Positions 50,697 to 59,446 of a DNA stretch of 61,450 bases are shown here, one piece after another. Location: IMG/VR virus record IMGVR_UViG_3300027793_002658; one strand, given 5' to 3'. The notes below the pieces were generated by a model. The model did not search any database, was not told where the DNA came from, and was given only the letters and a program-made list of their open reading frames with translations. Position 1 is the stretch's first letter, and each line of letters begins with the position of its first letter. Source of the DNA: an uncultured virus (IMG/VR IMGVR_UViG_3300027793_002658) (taxonomy: Duplodnaviria > Heunggongvirae > Uroviricota > Caudoviricetes). Position numbers and translations under genes: made by a program.

Positions 50697-51020
50697 TTAC
50701 ATTGTCAATTCATTTGATTTTTTTACAGCAATTTCATATGACGAATTTATTAATTTATACAAATCATTTGGATACATTCCATCCACACCATTTGTTTTAT
50801 TAAATATATGATATTGCTCTGCTTCAAGATGATGAAGTGAGCATAACGTTATACCATTTTCTATTACATAGCCTCCATTTGGCATTTCATGTCTATCTGT
50901 AATATGATGTGCATCAAGATTTTCAGTCGATCCACAAATTTTGCACCGATTCTTATCTCGCGCAAATACATTTTTTGAGAAATTCTTGCGCCATTCCTTA
51001 TGTGCTTGTTTCTTGCTCAT
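50697..51020 (-). CDS. HNH endonuclease-like protein
   Basis: RD..RCKICG...LDAHHI...NGITLC..HH. Confidence 0.8.
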   Translation of the reverse strand: MSKKQAHKEWRKNFSKNVFARDKNRCKICGSTENLDAHHITDRHEMPNGGYVIENGITLCSLHHLEAEQYHIFNKTNGVDGMYPNDLYKLINSSYEIAVKKSNELTM

Positions 51021-51201
51021 CTTTTTTAATTTGTTTATATATTGCATCTGCTTCTTCTAAATAAAGATCTTGTTCGCATCTGGCCCATTCTTCCGCCGAC
51101 ATTCCATTTCCATAATATCCATGAAATTCAGCATGCATTTTCCAACCTTCTGCATATTTTTTTGCCAAATTATATGCAATATTTGTAATAACTTTATTCA
51201 T
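50998..51201 (-). CDS. Hypothetical protein
   Basis: ORF. Confidence 0.55.
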   Translation of the reverse strand: MNKVITNIAYNLAKKYAEGWKMHAEFHGYYGNGMSAEEWARCEQDLYLEEADAIYKQIKKDEQETST

Positions 51202-51213
51202 ATTTTACTAAAT

Positions 51214-51597
51214 TGGTGGACGTGGAGGAAGTTGAATCCTCGTCTTTAACATTTTACCCATACCAGACTACATGTTTATTCATTTTGAATTTATTCGTGG
51301 CAATTCTAATAAATGAAAAACAAAATTGCCCTTAAGATTGCTCAATGTTCAACAATACAACACAATCCGATTATATCGTTTACTCTGATAAATGGCGTTT
51401 ACATCAGTATCAGATATTCTGATATAAACGGGCTACCAGTAAATTAGGCAGCAACAGCGACTTCATCATAGTTGAAGTCATATGCAATTACATTGTCTTC
51501 TGCATTTAGGTTTTTAATGGATTTTTTTAGGAAGCCAACCATCATCTTCCACATGCCTAGCATGACTAGTATATTAAATCGAAACCAGTACACGCCC
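51214..51597 (-). ncRNA. ssrA: tmRNA
   Basis: 5' GGGCGUGUACUGGUUUCGA; G3-U acceptor stem; T-arm and ACCA end; tag AEDNVIAYDFNYDEVAVAA* at 51503-51444. Confidence 0.92.
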
Positions 51598-51603
51598 GTA
51601 AAA

Positions 51604-51792
51604 TTATATTTCTGTATTAATAGATTGTGCTTTTTCAGCATCAAAATTTTTTAATGCCTGATAAACTTCTTTCAGACACGAATACTCACTTTGATCCATA
51701 CCCGGCATCACACTAACTCTTAAGTTAGAGTAATTTTTTTCTTTACAAATTTTGTTTAATTGGTGTTTATACCAGTCATTGCTTTTTTTCAT
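51604..51792 (-). CDS. Hypothetical protein
   Basis: ORF from MKKSNDW, ATGA overlap. Confidence 0.5.
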   Translation of the reverse strand: MKKSNDWYKHQLNKICKEKNYSNLRVSVMPGMDQSEYSCLKEVYQALKNFDAEKAQSINTEI

Positions 51793-52529
51793 ATTATTGA
51801 TTCCTCTAATACTTGGCCACAACTTTCTCGTAAAACAAGTGCGGCAAACTTATCAAACGCAGTAGGAGTATTGTTGATAATTACCAACTTGCATTGTGGA
51901 TTACGATCCAACAACAAATTGCATGCTGGCATAACCTGTAAACTACTGCCAATTGCAATCAATAAATCACATTCAGCAATTGCTTTTTGTGCCGTCTCAA
52001 AAACAACATCATCCAACCATTCATCAAACAATACCGTGTTTGGTCGAATAGTTCCAAATGTACAAATTGGACACTTAGGAATTCCTTTGTCATTGAATAA
52101 ACCAAGATATTGAGAAATATCAAATGTATATTTACATCCATTGGTACATCTAAAAGATTTACAAGTGCCATGTAATTCTAAAACTTTCTTAGAACCAGCT
52201 TTTACATGTAATCCATCAATATTTTGAGTAACAACAGCTTTTAATTTTCCTTGCTCTTCTAATTTTGCAAGAGCAAAATGCGCTCTATTTGGTTCCTTAT
52301 CAACCAATTTTAACAACCGTTCCTTGTAAAATAACGATAACAATGCTGGATCTTTTCTAAGAGTACGACGAGAAAGAATATCTTCAGGTTCCATTCCTTC
52401 AAATGGTCCGCTTGTATACAGCCCACCAACACTACGAAAATCAGGAATTCCACTTTCGGTGCTAATTCCCGCCCCCGTAAATGCAACGATATTTGTTGCA
52501 TTATCAATATAACTTTTTAATGTATTCAT
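51789..52529 (-). CDS. Sir2/CobB-family NAD-dependent deacylase
   Basis: TGAGISTESGIPDFR, TQNIDGLH, HG, two CxxC-like pairs, GSSL.V.P; upstream ORF extension is the tRNA. Confidence 0.92.
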   Translation of the reverse strand: MNTLKSYIDNATNIVAFTGAGISTESGIPDFRSVGGLYTSGPFEGMEPEDILSRRTLRKDPALLSLFYKERLLKLVDKEPNRAHFALAKLEEQGKLKAVVTQNIDGLHVKAGSKKVLELHGTCKSFRCTNGCKYTFDISQYLGLFNDKGIPKCPICTFGTIRPNTVLFDEWLDDVVFETAQKAIAECDLLIAIGSSLQVMPACNLLLDRNPQCKLVIINNTPTAFDKFAALVLRESCGQVLEESII

Positions 52530-52534
52530 AAAAT

Positions 52535-52608
52535 TGGCAGGGGATGAAGGAATCGAACCTTCACTAAGAGATCCAAAGTCTCCTGCACTACCATTATGCA
52601 AATCCCCA
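52535..52608 (-). tRNA. tRNA-Gln(TTG)
   Basis: Cloverleaf, CCA. Confidence 0.85.
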
Positions 52609-52621
52609 GTTAAAATTAACC

Positions 52622-52710
52622 TAACACAAACCGTGCTATTATACGCTAAAAAGCAATGCGGCACATGCGCCCAAACCCTTATGAAATACTTCTTTCGGGT
52701 GTTTGTGTTG
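52622..52710 (-). ncRNA. Unassigned ~90-nt stem-closed RNA
   Basis: aacacaaac/gtttgtgtt terminal helix, two internal hairpins. Confidence 0.4.
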
Positions 52711-52713
52711 AAA

Positions 52714-52987
52714 TTGACACTCGCCGTAGCCGATGTTCTGTTCTATTCCTACATTTATCTCAATATTTCTATTGGCAATCTGTTAAAGATTGCTGCTCCA
52801 ACCTTGTCCTGATAACGTGCAGCACTACACTCGGACACTTTAGGATTACTGCTAATTTGTGGTATTAACGTGCGGTATGTCGTCGTATAACGCTTGAGCG
52901 CATCAAACGAAAGCACTCCCAATCATCTGCTGTGCAGCATCGAACTTCCTCTAAGATATAATCTCAGCGTAGGATCGCTTGTGTCAA
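52714..52987 (-). ncRNA. rnpB: Phage-encoded reduced RNase P RNA
   Basis: P1, P2, P3; GAGGAAGUUCGAUG / ACAGAACAUCGGCUAC P4; P5 GCUGC/GCAGC; P18 with GAAA loop; AGAUAAAUG J18/2. Confidence 0.85.
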
Positions 52988-52990
52988 AAT

Positions 52991-53065
52991 TGGCTGCTCT
53001 TGATGGAATTGAACCACCATTCTCTCGTTCAAAGCGAGTAGTAATAGCCATTATACTAAAGAGCA
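52991..53065 (-). tRNA. tRNA-Gln(TTG)
   Basis: Cloverleaf, CCA. Confidence 0.8.
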
Positions 53066-53074
53066 ATATTAAAA

Positions 53075-53150
53075 TGGTGCCAGAATTTGGATTTGAACCA
53101 CGACAAAAAGATTCAAAGTCTTTTGTGCTAAACCGTTACACCATCGGGCA
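53075..53150 (-). tRNA. Degenerate tRNA-Gln(TTG)
   Basis: Good D and anticodon arms; mismatched T-stem and acceptor. Confidence 0.55.
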
Positions 53151-54702: not shown

Positions 54703-55077
54703 TTACTTTACTTCAATATACTTTGTTTTTGCTTCCGGCGTTTTCGGCACCGTCAACTTTAACACGCCGTCTTCTAGTTTAGACTCGATTTTATCGAAAT
54801 CGACATAAGGCAATGCAAACTCTCTCACATAACTTGCTCTTGCATTTTTTGCAGATACCTTAATTACACCCTTAGTGACTTCAACTTTAATTTCGTCACG
54901 TTTGAAGCGGGGCAACTCAATTTCAATCGTATATTGAGATTCAGTTTCCGCAAAATCAGTTGGTCTCCAATTGCGACTCAATTGAAATGATGGTTCTTTC
55001 CAGAAGTCATCATGCAATCTATCAAACAACTGAAATATATCTGTCATTCCACTGCCATATCTTTGAATATTATTCAT
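54703..55077 (-). CDS. Small heat-shock protein (Hsp20)
   Basis: ELPRF...IKVEV; REFALP; LEDGVLKLTVPK. Confidence 0.9.
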   Translation of the reverse strand: MNNIQRYGSGMTDIFQLFDRLHDDFWKEPSFQLSRNWRPTDFAETESQYTIEIELPRFKRDEIKVEVTKGVIKVSAKNARASYVREFALPYVDFDKIESKLEDGVLKLTVPKTPEAKTKYIEVK

Positions 55078-55248: not shown

Positions 55249-55264
55249 ATTATATAAAAATATA

Positions 55265-55518
55265 ATGTAATAAATACGGCAGGAGTTCCTGCTCCCAGCA
55301 TAATTTGCAGGTAGGCATATCTACTGAGCCATCTGCGACCAGATACGGTTTGTCTGTGATTTCGGATCTTGTAGTATTTCCCCCGACGCACGAATTTGCA
55401 GAATCTCTACTTCAGGATTTTCACCTTGCCTCAATTCTCACCATTCTACATGGTAGACCAACGGGCTCTCGCTTATGCAGTCTAATTTGGACATTAGGTG
55501 TCCCCGACATTATTACAT
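55265..55518 (-). ncRNA. Unassigned ~254-nt structured RNA
   Basis: AUGUAAUAA/UUAUUACAU terminal helix, GC-enriched, many hairpins. Confidence 0.55.
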
Positions 55519-55523
55519 AAAAA

Positions 55524-55607
55524 TGGTAGGCATGATAGGACTTGCACCTACACGGATTTCTCCATTGATTTCTAAGACCAACGCGGCTTCTTTTACGCCA
55601 CATGCCC
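55524..55607 (-). tRNA. tRNA-Leu(TAG)
   Basis: Cloverleaf, long variable arm, CCA. Confidence 0.8.
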
Positions 55608-55621
55608 ATTATTAAATTAAC

Positions 55622-55729
55622 AAGATACAACAATTTACAGTTTTGCTTCTGACCTGCATTTTTTTCATGGTCCGCAGACAAGACGATTCATTTCCTATGA
55701 TAATTTATATTTGTTGCTGTGTGTATCTT
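55622..55729 (-). ncRNA. CAGCAA-motif stem RNA (copy 2)
   Basis: AAGAUACA-CACAGCAA...UGUAUCUU. Confidence 0.6.
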
Positions 55730-55738
55730 AAAAATTAC

Positions 55739-55854
55739 GAGATGTGTTTTTATAATTTGAGTTTCAAGCTCAATGCCTTACCATTAGGCGAATTTTCCAC
55801 ACGGAAAATATTGGATTTGAACCAATAATTTATTTGTATTGCTGCGCACATCTC
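55739..55854 (-). ncRNA. CAGCAA-motif RNA enclosing a circularly permuted tRNA-Ser(UGA)
   Basis: GAGAUGUG/CACAUCUC closing stem; order T-arm, closed acceptor hairpin, D-arm, anticodon arm. Confidence 0.75.
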
Positions 55855-59371: not shown

Positions 59372-59446
59372 TGGTGCGCCCAGCGAGATTCGAACTCGCA
59401 AATATAGTTTTAGAGACCACTGTTTTAACCGTTAAACTATGGACGC
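59372..59446 (-). tRNA. Amber suppressor tRNA, anticodon CUA
   Basis: GCGUCCA/UGGGCGC-A-CCA; anticodon loop CUCUAAA; T-loop UUCGAAU. Confidence 0.85.

What the first reader, a model, noticed from the sequence alone, without database searches (positions are those of the whole stretch)
52714..52987. Phage-encoded, reduced RNase P RNA with intact catalytic domain and divergent specificity domain
Seen in 274 nt: P1 (UUGACAC/GUGUCAA), P2 (UCCUAC/GUAGGA), P3 hairpin, P4 (GAGGAAGUUCGAUG at 52951-52938 pairing with ACAGAACAUCGGCUAC at 52742-52726), P5 (GCUGC/GCAGC, covarying from the usual GCUCC/GGAGC), a short P15-like hairpin, P18 with GAAA tetraloop and AGAUAAAUG. Known: these are the universal RNase P core elements, and typical bacterial RNAs are about 350-400 nt. 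I cannot find the conserved S-domain T-loop sequences that grip the tRNA elbow. Inference: relaxed elbow recognition would suit the neighbouring tRNAs with aberrant D/T loops.
Basis: partly seen in the sequence, partly recalled or inferred. Interest (0 to 1): 0.75.

Follow-up and report, generated by a model that had tools for sequence, protein, structure and literature searches.

The report
Phage-encoded minimal RNase P RNA
A large freshwater phage carries, inside its tRNA gene cluster, its own stripped-down copy of the RNA enzyme that trims tRNA precursors, in a form that the standard search models miss.

Summary
The feature is real. Window 52714-52987 (minus strand) is one member of a family of at least 15 sequence variants on phage and metagenome contigs. 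Thirteen aligned members keep one secondary structure: 63 pairs, 96% of cells paired, 37 pairs with compensatory changes, 0 of 500 shuffles as good. The structure has the RNase P catalytic domain: P1, P2, P3, the P4 pseudoknot (CR-I/CR-V), P5, P15-P17 with the GGU loop, an extra hairpin, P18 with a GNRA loop, and CR-IV.

Rfam finds nothing in the window itself. A relative, L008, matches class B RNase P over the full model (E 1.4e-10). A model built from the family finds the matching half of class A RNase P RNAs.

The specificity domain is one variable arm with no P8, P9, J11/12 or J12/13. The P4 pair next to the bulged U is U·G in 13 of 13 members. No RnpA gene was found in the phage records searched, so a host protein is inferred.

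Contigs from RNA libraries bound a 368-370 nt unit (52622-52989/91) joined head to tail, which may mean a circular RNA.

Most likely this is a working, reduced phage RNase P RNA. No activity has been tested.

The parts
52714..52987 (-). RNase P-like core RNA (274 nt), closed by P1
   Evidence: Covarying structure shared by 13 relatives. The relative L008 hits RF00011 at E 1.4e-10.
52977..52987 (-). P1 5' strand (UUGACA + AGC)
   Evidence: Pairs with 52714-52724. 6 of 9 pairs show compensatory change.
52968..52974 (-). P2 5' strand UCCUACG
   Evidence: Pairs with 52747-52753. 7 pairs, 100% paired, 3 compensatory.
52951..52967 (-). P3 hairpin
   Evidence: The base of the helix is conserved. The rest of the hairpin differs in length between members (shortest in L091, L236 and the window; a long insertion in L239, L240 and L403).
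52938..52951 (-). CR-I and P4 5' strand GAGGAAGUUCGAUG, with bulged U at 52942
   Evidence: 8 pairs with 52728-52735. 2 pairs are compensatory in L403 and L410. The Rfam consensus here is GAGGAAAGUCC.
52934..52937 (-). P5 5' strand CUGC
   Evidence: Pairs with GCAG at 52849-52852. 100% paired, 2 of 4 pairs compensatory.
52853..52933 (-). Vestigial specificity domain: two 3-bp stems (GAU/AUU, UGG/CCA), the junction GAG ... CGUUAAUA, and one variable hairpin (52871-52915)
   Evidence: Stems found. The hairpin length differs widely between members. None of this region aligns to the Rfam S-domain.
52849..52852 (-). P5 3' strand GCAG, followed by J5/15 UAA
52797..52845 (-). P15 (UCC/GGA), P16 (UGUCC/GGACA), P17 hairpin, and the internal loop AAGGUUGGAG holding GGU
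   Evidence: The GGU stretch is invariant. P16 has 5 of 5 pairs compensatory. The region aligns to class A P15-P17.
52775..52793 (-). Extra hairpin GCAAUCU-UUAAC-AGAUUGC, in the position of class B P15.1
Evidence: 7 of 7 pairs compensatory.
52761..52774 (-). P18 with a GAAA loop
   Evidence: 5 pairs, all compensatory. The loop is GNRA in 10 of 11 members of A1.
52752..52760 (-). CR-IV / J18-2 AGAUAAAUG
   Evidence: Near invariant. The Rfam consensus is AGAuAgAUg for class B and AGAugAAUG for class A.
52726..52741 (-). CR-V and P4 3' strand ACAGAACAUCGGCUAC
   Evidence: The Rfam consensus is ACAGAACCCGGCUUAc for class A and ACAaAACAUGGCUUAc for class B.
52622..52713 (-). 3' module: closing stem AACACAAAC/GUUUGUGUU around three hairpins; lies in the same RNA-library contig as the core
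   Evidence: Fold. Stems covary among 18 viral loci. RNA contigs. Absent beside L010, L012, L002, L008, L238 and L236.
52622..52991 (-). Unit bounded in RNA-library contigs (368-370 nt), joined head to tail
   Evidence: X18: a 398-nt contig, depth 22.9, joint 52989->52622. X8: a 400-nt contig, depth 26.9, lying on 52622-52991.
52991..53065 (-). Upstream tRNA-Gln(UUG) with encoded CCA
52535..52608 (-). Downstream tRNA-Gln(UUG) with encoded CCA

Best explanation
This is a phage-encoded homologue of bacterial RNase P RNA that evolves under selection for its catalytic-domain structure. It is transcribed as part of the phage's tRNA/tmRNA cluster.

Shown: it keeps the whole bacterial catalytic domain (P1-P5, P15-P17 with the GGU loop, P18, CR-I, CR-IV, CR-V). 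Its specificity domain is reduced to one variable arm.

Inferred:
- It folds into an active ribozyme and borrows the host's RnpA protein, since no phage rnpA was found.
- It cuts the 5' leaders of the phage's own pre-tRNAs and pre-tmRNA.
- It recognises them mainly through the acceptor stem, the encoded 3' CCA (pairing with GGU) and a U at position -1, not through the T/D-loop elbow.

Its benefit would be to keep tRNA maturation going during infection, independent of the supply of host RNase P RNA.
For: Structure under selection:
- 13 relatives, 63 pairs, 96.0% of cells paired, 37 pairs with compensatory change, 0 of 500 shuffles as good; slid controls pair at 32-45% (11 sequences).
- The P4 pseudoknot is itself compensated in L403 and L410.

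RNase P identity:
- L008 matches RF00011 at E 1.4e-10 over model positions 1-365.
- The family model R1 hits the homologous 3' half of 3 of 15 Rfam-confirmed class A loci at E<0.1 (L379 2.3e-4, L377 2.6e-3, L378 0.078).
- CR-I, CR-IV, CR-V, the J5/15 AA and the GGU stretch are invariant or nearly so, while the helices vary.

Context:
- It sits between two tRNA-Gln genes in an array of 14 tRNAs and a tmRNA.
- 14 of 14 tRNAs encode CCA and 13 of 14 have U at -1.
- Most relatives also lie beside tRNAs.

Protein partner:
- RnpA (PF00825) matched 0 of 2 held family records, one of them 303,564 bp and 89% complete.
- 0 of 64 window ORFs matched it.

RNA evidence: contigs from 2 metatranscriptome runs cover the unit at depth 22.9 and 26.9, against 3-4 for neighbouring contigs of the same runs.

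Precedents: the C-domain alone is catalytic, with reduced efficiency (PMC5839562, abstract seen in the listing). Other huge-phage contigs carry Rfam-passing class A RNase P RNAs among tRNAs and also lack RnpA.
Against: - No Rfam RNase P hit in the window sequence even at E<=10. L008 scores 42.7 bits against a gathering score of 97.
- The P4 pair next to the bulged U is U·G in 13 of 13 members, where both Rfam consensus sequences have G:C. In the window lineage the next pair is G:C instead of A:U. This is the helix that holds the catalytic metal ions (established knowledge, recalled).
- The innermost P4 pair is broken in L403 and L410.
- P8, the usual docking site of the L18 GNRA loop (recalled), is absent.
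- No S-domain means weak substrate binding in engineered forms (PMC5839562, abstract).
- A viral RNase P-like RNA described earlier (camelpox) had no activity in vitro (PMC3001073, passages).
- RNA-library contigs do not prove transcription, and DNA can be present in them (tool note).
- The host and its RnpA are unknown.
- No activity has been measured.
Confidence: 0.62

Rival explanations
1. An RNase P RNA mimic that is not catalytic. It binds host RnpA or pre-tRNAs and so redirects or damps host tRNA processing (a decoy or regulator).
For: - The P4 pair next to the bulged U is altered in 13 of 13 members.
- The S-domain is lost.
- No phage RnpA was found, so any RnpA bound is the host's.
- A poxvirus RNase P-like RNA was inactive in vitro, and a decoy role was discussed for it (PMC3001073, passages).
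Against: - A decoy for RnpA would not need invariant CR-IV, CR-V, J5/15 and GGU together with a compensated P4.
- The position inside the phage's own tRNA operon, and the match between GGU and 14 of 14 encoded CCA ends, fit a processing enzyme.
Confidence: 0.15
2. An RNase P-derived ribozyme with a changed main substrate. For example, it releases the non-tRNA RNAs of the array (its own unit, the 3' module, the 257-nt RNA at 55264-55521, the tmRNA) or cuts host RNAs, rather than doing general tRNA maturation.
For: - Loss of the elbow-binding domain would free the enzyme from tRNA shape (inference).
- Several structured non-tRNA RNAs lie between the tRNAs and appear as bounded units in RNA libraries.
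- The 3' module has a closing stem and three hairpins, like a cloverleaf.
Against: - The unit ends do not fall at the first base of the terminal stems, as an RNase P cut would. They lie 2-4 nt upstream.
- GGU with CCA, and U at -1, are tRNA-type signals.
Confidence: 0.12
3. A decaying, non-functional remnant of an RNase P RNA gene picked up from a host or another phage.
For: Reduced size, no Rfam hit, and variable insertions in P3, P18 and the S arm.
Against: - 37 of 63 pairs are kept by compensatory change and the core motifs are invariant across at least 15 variants.
- RNA-library contigs over it have higher depth than those of its flanks.
Confidence: 0.04
4. A structured RNA unrelated to RNase P whose likeness is coincidence.
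For: No Rfam hit in the window.
Against: - L008 matches the full model at E 1.4e-10.
- The family's own model reciprocally hits class A RNase P RNAs at the homologous place.
- CR-I, CR-IV and CR-V occur in the right order and pairing.
Confidence: 0.02

Closest known systems
Bacterial RNase P RNA class A (Rfam RF00010), including the copies found here on huge-phage contigs
   Same: P1-P5, the P4 pseudoknot from CR-I and CR-V, J5/15 AA, P15-P16-P17 with an internal loop holding GGU, P18 with GNRA, and CR-IV. J5/7 is also alike: ACAGCAG here against ACAGAGCAG in L379. The phage class A copies likewise sit among tRNAs on records without RnpA.
   Different: No P8, P9, P13 or P14, no J11/12 (ACAGAAA), no J12/13 (GGGUGAAA). 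An extra hairpin lies between P15 and P18. The P4 pair beside the bulged U is U·G. There is no Rfam hit. The phage class A copies L376, L378 and L379 lack only P13/P14.
Bacterial RNase P RNA class B (Rfam RF00011)
   Same: This is the best Rfam family for the relative L008. There is a hairpin in the position of P15.1, a P19 in L008, and CAUG/CAUC-type P4 sequences (AUGCU after CR-I; ACAaAACAU in CR-V).
   Different: No P5.1 and no P10.1. P15 carries an inserted P16/P17-like arm instead of a plain loop. P19 is absent from the window. The score is below the gathering score.
Archaeal type T RNase P RNA of Thermoproteaceae, and other natural forms without P12 (Mycoplasma fermentans, some CPR bacteria)
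   Same: Natural RNase P RNAs that keep the catalytic domain and have lost most of, or key parts of, the specificity domain. The loss of P12 in M. fermentans, Thermoproteaceae and CPR genomes is stated in PMC8172020 (passages). The type T description is recalled.
   Different: Those are the cell's only RNase P RNA. This one is a second, virus-borne copy of bacterial type. No Rfam match to any RNase P family, the type T model included, at E<=10.
Engineered C-domain-only bacterial RNase P RNA
   Same: A catalytic domain without an S-domain still cleaves, with reduced efficiency (PMC5839562, abstract seen in the listing).
   Different: That is a laboratory construct. Here the reduction is natural and conserved, and a short arm and junction remain in place of the S-domain.
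Orthopoxvirus (camelpox) RNase P-like RNA
   Same: A virus-encoded RNA with some likeness to RNase P RNA (PMC3001073, passages).
   Different: That RNA showed no pre-tRNA processing in vitro, and its likeness was in secondary structure only. The phage RNA has the conserved sequence blocks, covariation and a tRNA-operon context.
Circular RNase P RNAs (archaeal; engineered circular M1 RNA)
   Same: Circular RNase P RNA has been described in some archaea (PMC4238349, passage). A synthetic circular M1 RNA remains catalytically active (bioRxiv 10.64898/2026.01.28.702370, abstract). Here, head-to-tail contigs occur in 2 RNA runs.
   Different: Here circularity rests on assembled contigs only. The unit includes a 92-nt extra module. 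The sealing enzyme is unknown; an Rnl2-type ligase gene is present in the relative G002, and no RtcB was found.

Membership tests
Bacterial RNase P RNA (Rfam clan CL00002: RF00010, RF00011) | Score at or above the Rfam gathering score | tested here: not met
   Window: no hit at gathering score or at E<=10. Relative L008: 42.7 bits against 97.
Bacterial RNase P RNA (Rfam clan CL00002: RF00010, RF00011) | P4 pseudoknot formed by CR-I and CR-V, with a bulged U | tested here: met
   8 pairs, 98.1% of cells paired, 2 pairs compensatory, bulged U invariant. One deviation: the pair beside the bulge is U·G in 13 of 13 members.
Bacterial RNase P RNA (Rfam clan CL00002: RF00010, RF00011) | CR-IV (J18/2) and the order P1, P2, P3, P4, P5 ... 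P15, P18, P2', P4', P1' | tested here: met
   AGAUAAAUG at 52752-52760. Helix order and covariation.
Bacterial RNase P RNA (Rfam clan CL00002: RF00010, RF00011) | P15 loop with GGU, for the 3' CCA of the substrate | tested here: met
   AAGGUUGGAG is invariant. 14 of 14 phage tRNAs encode CCA. The pairing itself was not tested.
Bacterial RNase P RNA (Rfam clan CL00002: RF00010, RF00011) | Specificity domain with P8, P9, P10/11, the J11/12-P12-J12/13 module (CR-II, CR-III) | tested here: not met
   Only two 3-bp stems, a junction and one variable hairpin lie between the P5 strands. cmscan leaves this region of L008 unaligned. The class A consensus motifs ACAGAAA and GGGUGAAA are absent.
Bacterial RNase P RNA (Rfam clan CL00002: RF00010, RF00011) | Cleaves pre-tRNA 5' leaders; works with RnpA | not testable with these tools
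RnpA matched 0 of 2 family records and 0 of 64 window ORFs, so a host protein would be needed.
RNase P RNA class B (RF00011) | P5.1, P10.1, P15.1 and P19 | tested here: inconclusive
   A hairpin in the P15.1 position is present and covaries. P19 occurs only in L008. No P5.1 or P10.1 is seen.
RNase P RNA class A (RF00010) | P15-P16-P17 internal-loop architecture, P13/P14, and the P6 pseudoknot | tested here: inconclusive
   P15-P17 is present and aligns to class A. P13/P14 are absent. P6 was not examined.
Archaeal type T RNase P RNA (RF02357) | Match to the family model | tested here: not met
   No RNase P family of Rfam 15 matched the window at E<=10. The likeness is in design only.
Covalently circular RNA | Junction-spanning molecules absent from DNA; exonuclease resistance | tested here: inconclusive
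   Head-to-tail contigs in 2 RNA runs from 2 studies. No DNA run was laid, there are no raw reads, and the tool cannot show RNA ends.

The most novel reading that the evidence does not exclude
The phage makes a naturally circular RNase P ribozyme of bacterial type that lacks an S-domain. The 368-nt unit (core plus 3' module) is cut out of the tRNA operon. Its ends are sealed, perhaps by an Rnl2-type RNA ligase like the one encoded by a related 303-kb phage. With the host's RnpA it matures the phage pre-tRNAs and pre-tmRNA without reading the tRNA elbow, using a P4 helix whose near-universal G:C pair beside the bulged U is replaced by U·G.
Probability: 0.2. Interest if true: 0.9.

Novelty: new variant of a known kind. 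Interest (0 to 1): 0.78.

Why it matters
RNase P RNA is one of the universal ribozymes. Natural forms without a specificity domain are rare: archaeal type T is the only clear case I recall.

- A conserved phage family with only the catalytic domain would be a natural experiment in how little RNA is needed to recognise and cut pre-tRNA.
- It would also show that phages bring their own tRNA-processing ribozyme along with their tRNAs and tmRNA.
- The family has an altered P4 active-site helix that could be tested directly.
- Standard Rfam models miss the family, so similar genes are probably unannotated in many phage genomes.
- Class A RNase P RNAs on huge-phage contigs of 100-497 kb, also without RnpA, suggest the phenomenon is broad. 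I found no paper on it; subscription journals are not covered by the library.

Tried and rejected
- Rfam on the whole window at gathering score and on 52600-53000 at E<=10: no RNase P family. Only two chance-level hits (snoZ7, mir-1789) on the other strand.
- BLAST of the region against 50,697 GenBank phage records: no match.
- The window's own assembly is not held. The nearest record, G001, does not hold the element.
I built a 3'-half model instead.
- The degenerate CR-I scan and the 15-mer scans gave mostly chance matches. L034 is a chance match inside a coding-looking stretch.
- The genome-contig scan stopped at 120 rows, only 80 of them with flanks. None had CR-I together with CR-V. This cannot exclude cellular copies.
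- The genome search with RF00011 on G002 and G003: only an 8.9-bit, 29-nt match elsewhere in G003.
- The two Clostridia-labelled genomes tried for a class B reference gave one class A RNA, so no bona fide class B alignment was seen in full.
- Pairing of the local GCAG (52926-52929) with P5 was rejected: it is broken in L240, and the stretch matches J5/7 of class A.
- An alternative P1 using the far 3' end was rejected because L091 cannot form it.
- Terminase_6N on 5 huge-virus records: 0 of 5, which is uninformative.
- RtcB: 0 of 3 records.
- Rfam on the second RNA at 55255-55530: nothing at E<=10.
- Parts of the window without RNA-contig cover carry no weight.

Full report
**What is at the coordinates.** On the minus strand, 52714-52987 lies between two tRNA-Gln genes (52991-53065 and 52535-52608). 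These belong to an array of 14 tRNAs and a tmRNA (51214-51597). The window is phage DNA. It encodes a gp25-type baseplate wedge protein and baseplate wedge subunits, an SbcCD-like nuclease, thymidylate synthase, DHFR, PhoH, Hsp20 and Sir2.

**The direct test fails for the window.** Rfam 15 finds no RNase P family in the window at gathering score. It also finds none in 52600-53000 at E<=10 with lax filters. The fold of the single sequence is not remarkable (z = -1.82). BLAST against GenBank phages finds nothing.

**Relatives.**
- Exact scans with the CR-I and CR-V words found the element on 13 IMG/VR contigs in 9 distinct variants.
- A metagenome scan added further variants: L236, L238, L239, L240, L245, L248. 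It also found copies identical to the window on contigs of 179,890 and 23,151 bp.
- A scan with the hairpin motif that follows the element, screened with my own model, added two members whose CR-I differs (L403, L410).
- One relative lies on a 303,564-bp contig that CheckV estimates to be 89% complete.
- A scan of bacterial and archaeal genomes gave no locus with both words.

**Structure and covariation.**
- RNAalifold on 11 members predicted P1, P2, P3, P5, two short stems, P15, P16, P17, an extra hairpin and P18 without guidance.
- With P4 added as a pseudoknot, the structure on 13 members has 63 pairs. Of 808 cells, 96.0% are paired, and 37 pairs carry compensatory change.
- None of 500 column shuffles reaches any of the five measures. 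Partners slid by 1-3 columns pair at 32-45% (the 11-sequence version is).
- P4 never varied among the 11 members found by its own word. L403 turns G:C into A:U at one pair. L403 and L410 turn U:A into C:G and G:C at another. The innermost pair is broken in both.
- Between the helices, CR-I, CR-IV, CR-V, the UAA after P5 and AAGGUUGGAG are invariant or nearly so.

**Link to RNase P.**
- The divergent member L008 matches Rfam class B RNase P over the whole model: positions 1-365, 42.7 bits, E 1.4e-10 on the 381-nt stretch. This is below the gathering score of 97.
- A covariance model of the family's 3' half (R1, 138 positions) was run without filters over 15 Rfam-confirmed class A loci, two other loci and the window.
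- R1 finds the homologous stretch, from the P5 3' strand to the 3' end, in L379 (28.0 bits, E 2.3e-4), L377 (E 2.6e-3) and L378 (E 0.078). Twelve class A loci are not found at E<0.1.
- Homology to RNase P RNA therefore rests on two independent model comparisons, plus the order and pairing of the conserved blocks.

**Corrected anatomy**.
- P5 is CUGC (52934-52937) with GCAG (52849-52852). It is 100% paired, and 2 of its 4 pairs are compensated.
It overlaps the 5' strand of the next hairpin, in which 7 of 7 pairs covary.
- The true P15 is UCC/GGA around a P16/P17 arm. Its internal loop holds GGU, as in class A.
- The hairpin between P15 and P18 stands where class B has P15.1, and L008 also has a P19. 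The family thus mixes class A and class B traits.
- P3, P18 and the arm in the S-domain position take insertions of very different length in different members.

**Specificity domain.** Between the two P5 strands the window has 81 nt:
- a J5/7-like ACAGCAG (compare ACAGAGCAG in L379);
- two 3-bp stems;
- the junction GAG ... CGUUAAUA;
- one variable hairpin, which in L010 is only a short stem-loop.

cmscan leaves this region of L008 unaligned. The class A consensus has P8, P9, J11/12 ACAGAAA, P12 and GGGUGAAA here. Even the reduced class A RNAs of other phages keep all of these and lack only P13/P14. The window family has none of them. The conserved junction strand might still form one T-loop-like turn; that is a guess I could not test.

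**The active-site helix.**
- Aligned without gaps to both Rfam consensus sequences, P4 keeps its length and the bulged U.
- The pair next to the bulge is U·G in 13 of 13 members where the consensus has G:C. I recall this pair as G68:C358 in E. coli numbering.
- In most members the next pair is G:C instead of A:U. L403 keeps A:U.
- This is the most serious sequence-level doubt about catalysis. It is also the most testable oddity.

**Substrates and partner.**
- All 14 tRNAs encode CCA, and 13 of 14 have U at -1. Thirteen have the D-loop GG and 12 have a UUCRA T loop.
- The retained GGU therefore has its partner.
- RnpA (PF00825) is found in 0 of 2 held records of the family, while the control rang in 10 of 14 known genomes. 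It is also absent from the 64 window ORFs scanned. A host protein is therefore inferred.

**RNA evidence**. Six runs on record as RNA hold the stretch. I laid four of them, all kept as contigs.
- In X18, a 398-nt contig (depth 22.9) joins 52989 back to 52622.
- In X8, a 400-nt contig (depth 26.9) lies on 52622-52991.
- Each length equals the unit plus 30, as a circular path at k=31 would give. That reading of the numbers is mine.
- Neighbouring contigs of the same runs have depth 3-4.
- In X2, one 3.4-kb contig runs straight through.
- A second inter-tRNA unit (55264-55520/1) shows the same head-to-tail joint in X9 and X8.

Contigs cannot show ends, strand or level, DNA may be present in such libraries, and I could not lay a DNA run. 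I therefore treat the discrete 368-370 nt unit as a hint and circularity as a possibility. Three things make a circle plausible. Circular RNase P RNA is described in archaea (PMC4238349, passage). A circular M1 RNA is active (bioRxiv 10.64898/2026.01.28.702370, abstract). The 303-kb relative encodes an Rnl2-type RNA ligase, 82.7 bits, and no RtcB.

**The 3' module.**
- The 92 nt after P1 (52622-52713) fold into a closing stem with three hairpins.
- The module recurs at 18 viral loci. Its stems covary, and it usually stands alone some 20-290 nt upstream of a tRNA-Ala.
- It is missing beside six family members.
- It is therefore a separate small RNA that happens to be joined to the core in this lineage. 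Its function is unknown.

**Mechanism and rivals.**
- Best reading (0.62): a working, reduced RNase P RNA that uses host RnpA and recognises acceptor stem, CCA and leader.
- Rival: a non-catalytic mimic (0.15). It is favoured by the P4 change and the camelpox precedent (PMC3001073, passages).
- Rival: a ribozyme retargeted to the array's non-tRNA RNAs (0.12).
- Rival: a decaying remnant (0.04).
- Rival: chance likeness (0.02).

**Known or new.**
- In the held library I found no paper describing a phage-encoded RNase P RNA. A megaphage description lists only tRNAs and a tmRNA as detected RNAs (PMC8172020, passage).
- Scans for the canonical CR-I nevertheless found 22 viral loci of class A type and 2 of class B type.
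- Of 20 of these loci searched, 16 hold RF00010 above gathering score (155.8-327.8 bits), and 9 of those 16 have tRNAs within the locus. Eight of those nine lie on contigs of 100-463 kb.
- 0 of 5 such records have RnpA, three of them at least 94% complete.
- Phage-borne RNase P RNA thus seems common and little described. The window's family is its most reduced form seen here, and one that Rfam misses. I file it as a new variant of a known kind.

**Limits.** There is no activity data. The host is unknown. The family was found partly by its own conserved words, which inflates apparent conservation of CR-I and CR-V. E-values from R1 are rough. The structural labels for the S-arm are by position only. 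Subscription literature was not searchable.

Noticed in passing
window 55264-55521 (-): A second inter-tRNA unit of 257-258 nt, between tRNA-Leu and tRNA-Ala. It is closed by a 9-10 bp terminal stem. It appears as a head-to-tail contig in two RNA runs (X9 depth 30.2, X8 depth 17.1). No Rfam match at E<=10. Fold z = -0.99. Identity unknown.
   Followed up: partly
window 52622-52713 (-); loci L396-L413: A structured module of about 85-90 nt: a closing stem, a hairpin CCCGA..GRAGKAUUYC.UAAGGG, a hairpin GGCGCAUGUGCC and a third hairpin. It recurs at 18 viral loci with covarying stems, mostly upstream of tRNA-Ala and tRNA-Gly genes. It is fused to the RNase P-like core only in some lineages. Function unknown. 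Its shape is cloverleaf-like, but ARAGORN does not call it a tRNA.
   Followed up: partly
loci L375-L395 (IMG/VR contigs up to 497 kb): Canonical class A RNase P RNAs (155.8-327.8 bits, 300-381 nt) at 16 of 20 viral loci searched; 9 of the 16 have tRNAs within the locus. L376, L378 and L379 lack P13/P14. RnpA was found in 0 of 5 of these records. No similar sequence in GenBank phage records apart from a Salmonella genome record.
   Followed up: partly
window 59372-59446 (-): A tRNA with anticodon CUA (ARAGORN calls it 'Pyl'; 65.7 bits as a tRNA), i.e. an amber-suppressor-type tRNA with encoded CCA. The long ORFs of the window are open under table 11, so no recoding is evident here.
   Followed up: no
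window 51214-51597 (-): A phage-encoded tmRNA (124.7 bits; tag peptide AEDNVIAYDFNYDEVAVAA), 1.1 kb downstream of the RNase P-like RNA. It is covered at depth 70-71 by contigs in two RNA runs. Its 5' end would also need RNase P.
   Followed up: no
window 55729-55798 (-): A weak tRNA-model hit (32.0 bits) that ARAGORN does not call. It has no T arm and no CCA. It may be a degenerate tRNA or a tRNA-like element.
   Followed up: no
window 53078-53149 (-) and 55527-55607 (-): Two atypical tRNAs. The tRNA-Gln (36.9 bits) has mismatches in the acceptor and T stems. The tRNA-Leu(UAG) has no D-loop GG and a UGCAAGU T loop.
   Followed up: partly
L003, L007, L009, L248, L410; L239, L240, L403: Some family members carry an insertion of roughly 90-100 nt in P18 (L003 group, L410). 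Others carry a large branched insertion in P3 (L239, L240, L403).
   Followed up: no
window 50700-51047, 51792-52532, 54706-55077 (-): Protein genes are scattered inside the tRNA island: an HNH endonuclease, a Sir2-family protein and an Hsp20.
   Followed up: no
G002:C1:101928-102410 (-): The 303-kb relative that carries the shortest family member encodes an RNA_ligase (PF09414) protein at 82.7 bits, plus a weaker second match. No RtcB.
   Followed up: no
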